A stretch of DNA of 63,758 bases, filler included, from Gonapodya sp. JEL0774 (taxonomy: Eukaryota), in the NCBI GenBank assembly GCA_027604505.1. It is 44 parts of 44 records of this genome, joined end to end, with 100 filler letters (N's around TTAATTAATTAA, not from the genome) between each part and the next. Parts side by side here need not be neighbours in the genome. Positions count along the whole stretch, not along the records: positions 40,760 to 42,107 come from JADIIX010003301.1; 43 more parts are not named here. One strand, given 5' to 3'. Positions 40,760 to 41,947 of the stretch are shown here, in pieces. The position numbers and the translations under genes were made by a program. Under the pieces are notes generated by a model. That model was given only the letters and a program-made list of their open reading frames with translations. It was not told the origin of the DNA and did not search any database. The stretch's first letter is position 1. Every line of letters begins with the position of its first letter.

Positions 40760-41947
40760 TGCGGATGGCTCACGTACGCCGACAACCGGGCATTCGTATG
40801 GACCGCGGTATTTGGATCTGGTTCGCGAATGCAGGGGTTTTCCGGTGGCACGGCGACTGCTCAGAGTGAATCGACGGAACACCTGTTTAGTGGTGGGTGG
40901 ATCCGCTTCCTCAATGTCGACTCTCCGGGAACGGGTCTACCTTCGAAGATGGAATCCGAATGGGCGTCACCGAGAACTTACATGCGATGGGACTGCTACA
41001 ACACGCGGTACGGATTCAGTGAGCATTCAGGTGTCCTCTGGGCGGATAAGGACATGTACAACCTGAAAAGCACGTTTTTTGACTTGTACTTCGACATGGC
41101 GCTCCTCCTGCTCTACAATCGCGTTGTGCTTTTTCGCTTCAGCAGCGATCTCTTTGACTTGGCCGAGCTGACGCATGCTCGTCTAAGCGGTCGTGTCGAT
41201 TCGGACAACGGTGCAACATTGCTGCAAGTCATGTACGCAGCAGCCCCGTGGCACCCTAAAAAACTTGCAGAGCGTGGCTTTCTTCACACGCGCGAGCAGT
41301 TTTCCAGATTTGTGGATCTGTATCTGTTCCCTCTCGTGTCAAATCAGCAACAGGGCGTAGAACTGTACTCAATCTTCCGAGAGGCCATGGATATTGATGC
41401 TCTATATACAGAAATTAAGGCTCAAGTTTCTGATTCGCATGACTCATACAACTCGAAAGTTGGCCGGGAACAAAATAATGTAGGTGAACTGACCTTTGTC
41501 TATGTATAATATGCGATTACCCCGCAAACATGTAAACGTTGTCTGTTTATCTTTCTTGGCACGCTTCACTCCATCTTCACTCTCTTCTTTTTCTTCGTTG
41601 GTTGATCGTCTTCGTCACCAACACCCTGTCGTTTGCAGGTCCTCTTCGTTCTCACAATCATCACTTTCCTGAGCATTCCAGTGTCAATCATGTTCGCGCT
41701 TCTTGGCGCCAGTGAGTGGCTAACGTGGACGAAGCGACGTCTTGGCTTTGCGGACTCAGACGTGGACTCAAGCCTGGACTCGACATTGCGGAAAGGAACC
41801 GTTGACGACTGGTTCCTGCAGCTCGTGGCCAGTGCACTACTGTGGGGTTTGCTATCTATTACGGCGCTTGCTTGTGTGGCTCTCGTTGGTAACTTTGGTG
41901 TGGCTCGCATGGTGGCCTTCAACTCCGGCCGATATCTCGGCAAGTGA
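40760..41947 (+). CDS. CorA-superfamily membrane protein resembling bacterial type III CRISPR-associated CorA; exons 40760-41479 and 41639-41947
   Basis: DNRAFVW, WIRFLNVD, RTYMRW..TRYGFS, YFDMALLLLYNRVVLFRFS, FSRFVDLYLFPLVSNQQQGVELY...EI, NN|VLFVLTIITFLSIPVSIMFALLGAS, then a second TM. Phase-0 GTAGGT...TTGCAG intron. Confidence 0.7.

What the first reader, a model, noticed from the sequence alone, without database searches (positions are those of the whole stretch)
40760..41947. Eukaryotic, intron-containing homolog of the type III CRISPR-associated CorA-like membrane effector
Seen: ordered motifs DNRAFVW, WIRFLNVD, RTYMRW..TRYGFS, YFDMALLLLYNRVVLFRFS, F..FVDLYLFPLVSNQQQGVELY...MDIDALYTEI, then two TM helices with CorA's GMN replaced by GAS. 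A phase-0 spliceosomal intron (41480-41638) lies just before TM1. Established, from memory: the divergent CorA proteins beside bacterial type III-B CRISPR loci show DDRMFV, TY.RW...GT.YG, Y..M..L.L.QR...L.FS and F.EVT.Q.QGIELY, and act as effectors of the SAM-AMP second messenger. They are unlike fungal Alr1, Mrs2 or Lpe10. Inference: a horizontally acquired bacterial immune effector domesticated in a fungus, possibly a nucleotide-gated death or defence channel with an unknown signal source. The intron argues against bacterial contamination.
Basis: partly seen in the sequence, partly recalled or inferred. Interest (0 to 1): 0.85.

Follow-up and report, generated by a model that had tools for sequence, protein, structure and literature searches.

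The report
CRISPR effector pair in chytrid fungi
An intron-containing gene of a chytrid-type fungus is a close relative of the membrane protein that bacterial type III-D2 CRISPR systems use to arrest infected cells; related fungi keep it next to a second copy that appears to lack the pore, so the pair is likely a borrowed, nucleotide-gated cell-death or dormancy switch whose trigger in fungi is not yet known.

Summary
A 1,348-base contig carries the 3' part of a gene with a 159-nt GT-AG intron; three other chytrid-type fungi have the spliced junction exactly (60-71% identity). The next relatives (33-40%) are bacterial CorA effectors of type III-D2, not III-B, CRISPR loci: 22 of 26 fetched loci carry Cas10 beside them. 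The published III-D2 system makes SAM-AMP and SAM-AMP2 and needs CorA for growth arrest. New here: the fungal genes form one clade split into two paralogs, A (this gene, two membrane helices) and B, which carry consecutive gene numbers in two genomes and form one fused model in a third. A keeps 25 of 25 conserved stalk residues; B keeps the predicted sensor residues (33-34 of 38) but only 12-14 of 25 stalk residues and has 0-1 membrane helices. Best reading: a bacterial immune effector gained once, duplicated, and used as a channel plus pore-less regulator in cell death or defence (0.45). Ligand, signal enzyme, expression and A-B binding are untested; nesting inside III-D2 CorAs is not statistically shown; B's ends rest on gene models.

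The parts
40760..42107 (.). Whole source contig (1,348 bases, 51% GC) between two artificial spacers; nothing outside it is linked to the gene
   Evidence: window without spacers is 52% GC
40760..41479 (+). Exon (5' end cut by contig edge), 240 aa: second half of the soluble domain and the stalk helices of paralog A; about 377 N-terminal residues of the G. prolifera homolog are missing
   Evidence: (PADLOC CorA E 1.1e-27)
40775..40801 (+). D-N-R motif; its Asp aligns with D219 of B. fragilis CorA, one of the residue pairs needed for immunity; Asp in 140 of 140 bacterial relatives
   Evidence: same motif in the studied III-D2 CorA
40898..40990 (+). W-x-R-x-x-N-x-D and T-Y-x-R-W motifs of the predicted sensor domain
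41087..41143 (+). Y-F-D...R...F-R-F-S helix
41300..41368 (+). F-P-L-x-S-N-Q-Q-Q-G-x-E-x-Y stalk motif, intact in A, degenerate in paralog B
41480..41638 (+). Phase-0 spliceosomal intron, 159 nt, GT-AG, two in-frame stops
41639..41947 (+). Last exon, 102 aa plus stop: predicted TM1 (about 41639-41716, GAS at 41705-41713) and TM2 (about 41810-41908)
   Evidence: long helices at the same place in the model of the homolog

Best explanation
This is the 3' part of an intron-containing fungal gene (paralog A) that is closely related to the CorA effectors of bacterial type III-D2 CRISPR systems, was likely gained once from bacteria and then duplicated, and is predicted to form a nucleotide-gated membrane channel that would arrest or kill the cell, with the neighbouring, apparently pore-less paralog B likely acting as its regulator. 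Shown: intron, homology, CRISPR context of the bacterial relatives, one fungal clade with A and B subclades, consecutive gene numbers, the pattern of conserved and lost residues. Inferred: (1) A oligomerises like other CorAs and binds a SAM-AMP-like adenine nucleotide with the conserved Arg/Asp pocket; (2) B keeps that pocket but not the stalk and pore, so it would bind the ligand or join the oligomer and hold A shut, taking the restraining role that the NrN phosphodiesterase has in bacteria; (3) a fungal signal made on infection or non-self contact would overcome B and open A. No source of that signal was identified.
For: Best hits are chytrid-type fungi (71, 63, 60%), then bacterial or metagenomic proteins at 33-40%. 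22 of 26 fetched bacterial loci have a Cas10 beside the CorA (21 by PADLOC; one more at a contig end), with Cas7-Cas5 and Cas7 fusions as in III-D2; the other 4 have an NrN-type gene fused or adjacent. PMC13294483 (passages): III-D2 makes SAM-AMP and SAM-AMP2, and deleting CorA removes growth arrest; its CorA has the same D-N-R motif. PMC10600005 (passages; supplement): B. fragilis CorA binds SAM-AMP, needs R152-R153 and D219-D220, and shows some toxicity alone that NrN reduces. The R152 column is Arg in 139 of 140 bacterial rows and in both full-length A proteins, Lys in the 3 B rows of that alignment; the D219 column is Asp in 140 of 140, in A and in those B rows. A, B and A+B each have 99-100 support. 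A and B are KXS21958/KXS21959 in G. prolifera and KAI9333028/KAI9333027 in Z. polystomum, each pair on one contig length, and are fused in one model in C. tenue. Sensor columns kept: A 33 and 35 of 38, B 33 and 34 of 38 and 30 of 33; stalk columns kept: A 25 of 25 twice, B 14, 12 and 14 of 25; residues after the QQG motif: bacteria 83 or more (n = 131, median 129), A 146-159, B 35-82 with 0-1 hydrophobic segments. Both fold confidently (pTM 0.79 and 0.88). G. prolifera carries giant-virus genes (PMC5294986, passages), so such fungi meet viruses.
Against: No fungal Cas10, NrN or SAM-AMP lyase was seen: the Cas10 search listed only 120 of 771 hits, none labelled eukaryotic, and no genome was available, so the signal source is missing from the picture. 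Only one residue of each tested B. fragilis pair is kept (R153 is Tyr, D220 is Asn or Ser), as in most bacterial III-D2 CorAs, and the binding role of these residues is itself a model. PMC11229360 (passages) suggests that some CorA clades use other ligands. B's short ends come from gene models whose DNA I could not read; A has an intron just before TM1, so a missed last exon in B is possible. Adjacency of A and B was read from gene numbers, not DNA, and in the window's own organism they lie on two separate short contigs. A tree with all 20 sampled III-D2-type bacterial rows held together, fungi outside, is not rejected (p-AU 0.63), and no donor group is resolved, so the direction of transfer rests on distribution. 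Foldseek's match to solved CorA channels is not significant (E 0.085). The extra B copy P0295 is more decayed (27 of 38 sensor columns, D219 column His).
Confidence: 0.45

Rival explanations
1. Ligand-independent toxin-antidote or self/non-self module: A is toxic by default, B neutralises it, and the linked pair persists or spreads selfishly between fungi.
For: CorA alone shows some toxicity in E. coli. A and B are found together in all 4 fungal sources. Patchy range: 4 fungal sources in two phyla among all hits seen. C. tenue copies are closer to Gonapodya (A 80 and 77%, B 67 and 68%) than to Zopfochytrium (74%, 55%), against taxonomy; holding the C. tenue and Zopfochytrium B copies together gives p-AU 0.045.
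Against: The predicted ligand pocket is kept in both A and B, which a ligand-free toxin would not need. The four-taxon test does not reject the species tree (p-AU 0.147). No fast diversification: 69-80% identity among A copies.
Confidence: 0.2
2. Co-option outside immunity: A (with B as a modulator) is a metabolite-gated ion channel that reads SAM, SAH or an adenine nucleotide in ordinary physiology.
For: Strong conservation across two phyla and low copy number; no CRISPR partner seen; B. fragilis CorA also binds SAH-AMP, so the pocket has some breadth.
Against: Every one of the 26 bacterial loci has a CRISPR-linked gene; the gene is absent from all other eukaryote-labelled hits, unlike a housekeeping channel; the GMN metal filter is gone.
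Confidence: 0.2
3. The fungi hold a complete SAM-AMP pathway: an unlinked Cas10-like or other nucleotidyltransferase makes SAM-AMP or SAM-AMP2 on a danger cue, and the pair responds as in bacteria.
For: Pocket residues match the III-D2 subfamily, whose system makes SAM-AMP and SAM-AMP2. My partner search could not have shown a divergent fungal enzyme.
Against: No such gene seen; none of 244 ORFs from the bacterial loci matched the window outside the CorA contig (the window is a tiny part of the genome). Cas10 normally needs the crRNA complex to be switched on (established knowledge).
Confidence: 0.12
4. Artefact: bacterial contamination or a decaying insertion.
For: The contig is short and cut; no linkage to host genes can be seen in the window.
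Against: Spliceosomal intron at a position read through in three other fungi; homologs on 1.49 Mb and 196 kb fungal contigs; host-like GC; 44 of 46 conserved columns kept.
Confidence: 0.03

Closest known systems
CorA effector of type III-D2 CRISPR-Cas (Gammaproteobacteria bacterium HyVt-522; PMC13294483)
   Same: Same subfamily motifs (D-N-R, W..D, TY.RW, YG, QQ.E); 33-40% identity to relatives from loci of the same build; two C-terminal membrane helices in A.
   Different: Eukaryotic, intron-bearing, long low-complexity insertions; no Cas10, Cas7 or NrN seen; duplicated into A plus an apparently pore-less B. None of the 26 bacterial loci showed two full tandem CorAs (two loci hold one gene broken into two frames).
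CorA effector of type III-B CRISPR-Cas (B. fragilis; PMC10600005)
   Same: R152 and D219 columns kept; same order of motifs; detectable similarity (E 1e-9 pairwise).
   Different: Only 22-24% identity to a III-B CorA; R153 and D220 not kept; GMN present in the III-B protein examined, absent here.
CorA/Mrs2/Alr1 Mg2+ channels (PF01544)
   Same: Weak Pfam match over stalk and TM1 (25.1 bits, E 1.4e-5); top Foldseek rows are CorA channels.
   Different: Below the Pfam cut-off of 27; no GMN; large soluble domain with no solved match.
Bacterial immune genes gained or shared by eukaryotes, such as gasdermins, cGAS-STING, viperin and Fanzor (recalled, no call)
   Same: Defence gene of bacterial type in a eukaryote; fungal gasdermin and HET pairs are also cell-death modules (recalled).
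   Different: This one is an ancillary effector of an RNA-guided CRISPR system, cut off from its CRISPR sensor and paired with its own truncated paralog.

Membership tests
Type III-D2 CRISPR-associated CorA | Soluble domain with the subfamily motifs | tested here: met
   44 of 46 conserved columns in exon 1; profile of 140 bacterial rows scores exon 1 at 237 bits and the full homolog at 352, against 130 for a III-B CorA
Type III-D2 CRISPR-associated CorA | Stalk helices plus two C-terminal membrane helices | tested here: met
   Paralog A, including the window gene: two hydrophobic segments, 25 of 25 stalk columns in the full homologs. Paralog B does not meet it (0-1 segments, 12-14 of 25)
Type III-D2 CRISPR-associated CorA | Encoded in a locus with Cas10 and Cas7 fusions | not testable with these tools
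   1.3 kb contig, no genome held; met for 22 of 26 bacterial relatives; Cas10 search gave no usable answer for fungi
Type III-D2 CRISPR-associated CorA | SAM-AMP-degrading partner (NrN, DEDD, lyase or TA module) nearby | not testable with these tools
   No fungal flanking DNA available; NrN-type gene in 12 of 26 bacterial loci among 134 of 244 ORFs scanned
Type III-D2 CRISPR-associated CorA | Activation by SAM-AMP or SAM-AMP2 causing growth arrest | not testable with these tools
   Needs bench work; only residue conservation was checked
Type III-B CorA (B. fragilis cluster) | G-R-R (R152-R153) and D-D-R-M-F (D219-D220) motifs | tested here: not met
   Fungal A has F-R-Y and D-N/S-R; 24% identity
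CorA/Mrs2/Alr1 Mg2+ channels | GMN filter after TM1 | tested here: not met
   GAS in the 3 A rows aligned and in the C. tenue copy
CorA/Mrs2/Alr1 Mg2+ channels | PF01544 above gathering score | tested here: not met
   25.1 bits against 27 for P0046; 16.8 or no hit for the other fungal proteins
CorA/Mrs2/Alr1 Mg2+ channels | CorA fold and pentamer | tested here: inconclusive
   Foldseek top rows are CorA structures but E 0.085; pentamer not modelled

The most novel reading that the evidence does not exclude
Chytrid-type fungi have turned a type III CRISPR effector into an innate-immune module of their own: a SAM-AMP-class nucleotide-gated death channel (A) guarded by a pore-less decoy paralog (B), passed as a unit between distant fungal lineages and triggered by a fungal nucleotide signal that has not been described.
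Probability: 0.3. Interest if true: 0.93.

Novelty: new variant of a known kind. Interest (0 to 1): 0.8.

Why it matters
The papers I could search describe SAM-AMP signalling and its CorA effector only in prokaryotic CRISPR loci. A conserved, intron-bearing fungal version means that a CRISPR ancillary effector can outlive its CRISPR sensor in a eukaryote, and asks what now makes its signal. The natural sensor-only paralog gives a direct handle on open questions about CorA effectors (where the ligand binds, why CorA needs a partner, how it is kept shut), and the pair can be tested at once in the published E. coli III-D2 assay. It also points to an unstudied immune or cell-death pathway in zoosporic fungi.

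Tried and rejected
Whole-genome search: no genome held. Pfam, NCBIfam and PDB sequence searches with the separate exons: no hits. Sequencing runs: none was listed, so no reads could be laid; no evidence either way on expression. Viral contigs: no relative with fungal patterns (72 stretches) or family patterns (328 stretches); phage records: no match; metagenome contigs with fungal patterns: none (113 stretches). So no viral carrier was found, which is weak evidence. Cas10 profile search: swamped by bacterial hits, 120 of 771 shown; an NrN alignment was built but not searched, as it would be swamped likewise and the last search went to the fungal profile. A-B complex prediction: no answer, score 0.00, alignments not used, N-termini trimmed; not evidence for or against binding. 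Wide structural search with the B model: no match at Z 8 or more. ESM Atlas: only bacterial CorA-like clusters, small clusters not searchable. The PADLOC CorA model also rings in 5 of 14 control genomes, so that label alone was not relied on. Alternative donor at 41484: would shift the frame; rejected by the 53-codon gap. The 160 bases after the stop show no match to the C. tenue B half at E up to 10; the output for the other B proteins was cut off. A SAM synthetase fragment in the window is on an unrelated contig and was not counted as a partner. Earlier scan findings: five look-ups, nothing returned. Literature: eight searches listed no paper on a eukaryotic CRISPR-type CorA; I saw only listings for most, and subscription papers are not covered.

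Full report
Setting. The window is not one stretch of genome: it is 44 contigs of about 1.35 kb, sorted by length and joined by 100-base spacers. The finding fills one contig, 40760-42107. No whole genome is held. The gene therefore has no real neighbours in the window and is cut at its 5' end.

Observation. Between them lies a 159-nt GT-AG segment with two in-frame stops, lower GC, a pyrimidine-rich end and a branch-like TTGAT. Homologs from three other fungi run straight across this point, leaving a gap of exactly 53 codons in the tblastn alignments seen in full, and the database's own model of the gene, P0046, splices it the same way. No RNA reads were available to confirm it directly.

Relatives. 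Pfam, NCBIfam and PDB sequence searches with the single exons found nothing; PADLOC's CRISPR-linked CorA models match exon 1 at E 1.1e-27 and 1.6e-23. The word-indexed search of longer proteins gave 42 hits among 1,636 candidates: Cladochytrium tenue (71%), Gonapodya prolifera (63%, 1.49 Mb contig) and Zopfochytrium polystomum (60%, 196 kb contig), then 39 bacterial or metagenomic proteins at 33-40%. The exhaustive search gave 622 hits, of which the best 150 were shown. The label of P0046 places the window in the genus Gonapodya. These genera span two phyla.

Context of the bacterial relatives. 26 loci were fetched from bacterial genomes; 134 of their 244 ORFs were scanned with PADLOC. 21 loci have a Cas10 hit, and a 22nd has the start of Cas10 at its contig end; they are followed by Cas7-Cas5 and multi-Cas7 fusions. 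The other four have an NrN-type gene fused or adjacent, and three of those four genomes hold the same Cas10 type on another contig (one copy with stops). This is the gene set of type III-D2 as described in PMC13294483, of which I read passages, the outline and the garbled text of Supplementary Fig. 9. [quoted passage not shown] A III-B CorA fetched from an annotated plasmid is 24% identical to exon 1 and scores 130 bits against a profile of the 140 bacterial rows, where exon 1 alone scores 237.

Pocket residues. PMC10600005 (passages, outline and part 1 of supplementary file 1; file 2 unreadable) shows that B. fragilis CorA binds SAM-AMP and that the pairs R152-R153 and D219-D220 are needed for immunity. 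Matching the printed motifs by eye, the R152 column is Arg in 139 of 140 bacterial rows and in both full-length fungal A proteins; the D219 column is Asp in 140 of 140 and in the window. The second residue of each pair differs, in the fungi as in most bacterial III-D2 rows. GMN is found in only 46 of 140 bacterial rows, so its loss is not a fungal peculiarity.

A second paralog. A tree of 202 rows put the fungal proteins in one clade with three further hits. These proved to be fungal too and, with the C-terminal half of the C. tenue model, form a paralog B. In G. prolifera A and B are KXS21958 and KXS21959; in Z. polystomum KAI9333028 and KAI9333027; each pair shares one contig length; in C. 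tenue A and B are merged into one model on a 6.6 kb contig. P0057, a B protein, carries the same source label as P0046 but lies on another short contig. A fungal-profile search added one more, more decayed B copy in Z. polystomum (P0295) and no other eukaryote among 9 hits from 7,992 candidates. A, B and A+B have 99-100 support in trees of 61 and 17 chosen rows, so the duplication followed the entry into fungi. B keeps the predicted sensor columns (33 and 34 of 38; 30 of 33) as well as A does (33 and 35 of 38), with Lys for the conserved Arg, but only 12-14 of 25 stalk columns against 25 of 25 in A, and ends 35-82 residues after the QQG motif with 0-1 hydrophobic segments, where 131 bacterial rows have at least 83. 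The stalk decay does not depend on where the gene models end; the missing helices do, and I could not read B's DNA. AlphaFold models of A and B are confident in the core, with low confidence in B's tail; Foldseek ranks CorA channels first but without significance.

History. A bacterial family tied to CRISPR loci, with four fungal sources on a long stem, points to one transfer from bacteria. The tests do not prove nesting: with one III-B outgroup the fungi fell inside the III-D2 rows at support 81-87, but a tree with the 20 bacterial rows held together was no worse (p-AU 0.63). No donor group is resolved. Within fungi, C. tenue copies are closer to Gonapodya than to Zopfochytrium in both A and B, against NCBI taxonomy; one test is borderline (p-AU 0.045) and the four-taxon test does not reject the species tree (p-AU 0.147). 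Transfer between fungi is a lead only; rate differences or mixed cultures could give the same pattern.

Mechanism. I commit at 0.45 to a gated channel plus pore-less regulator acting in cell death or defence. The steps shown are sequence, context and phylogeny; oligomer, ligand, the role of B and the trigger are inferred. The reasoning for B: bacterial CorA shows some toxicity without its NrN partner; no such partner was seen in fungi; a paralog that keeps the pocket and loses the pore is what a ligand sink or dominant-negative subunit would look like. Rivals are a ligand-free toxin-antidote pair (0.2), a metabolic channel (0.2), a full fungal SAM-AMP pathway with an unlinked synthase (0.12) and artefact (0.03). 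PMC11229360 (passages) raises other ligands for some CorA clades and does not contain the word 'eukaryot'. PMC5294986 (passages) reports giant-virus genes in G. prolifera.

Novelty. Eight literature searches listed nothing on a eukaryotic CRISPR-type CorA; coverage is limited to open papers and preprints, and supplements of eukaryote-wide defence-gene surveys were not seen. It works like a III-D2 CorA by anatomy, but it cannot be filed as a member of a CRISPR system: locus, partner enzyme and ligand could not be tested. Rated a new variant of a known kind, interest 0.8.

Noticed in passing
window 1-63758: The window is 44 length-sorted contigs joined by N-TTAATTAATTAA-N spacers; ORFs or neighbourhoods that cross a spacer are artefacts.
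   Followed up: yes
P0001 (C. tenue model): One 720-aa gene model merges the end of paralog A with paralog B; probably two genes annotated as one.
   Followed up: partly
P0295: A third, more decayed B-type copy in Z. polystomum on a separate 48 kb contig, with no membrane segment.
   Followed up: partly
window 44107-45000 (-): Open frame of about 298 codons starting with a signal-peptide-like stretch, no intron evident and no Pfam hit; possibly a secreted protein of unusual origin.
   Followed up: partly
window 23353-24706 (+): Retroelement-like contig with a Dam-type adenine methyltransferase domain (PF05869, 29.3 bits) and a second long overlapping frame, as in DIRS-like elements (recalled).
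   Followed up: partly
window 31-447 (+): S-adenosylmethionine synthetase fragment; unlinked to the finding.
   Followed up: yes
window 42209-43555 (-): Ceramidase gene fragment with introns on the next contig; unlinked.
   Followed up: partly
window 11965-13050 (+) and 22780-23178 (+): Weak reverse transcriptase match and a DDE transposase fragment.
   Followed up: no
L001:18188-20011, L021:7022-10066, L002:8432-10918: The NrN-type domain is fused to different partners in III-D2 loci: a reverse transcriptase, a Cas7 subunit, and CorA itself.
   Followed up: no
L012:9197-20081, L002, L024: CorA with NrN can lie on the strand facing the cas operon or on a contig apart from Cas10.
   Followed up: partly
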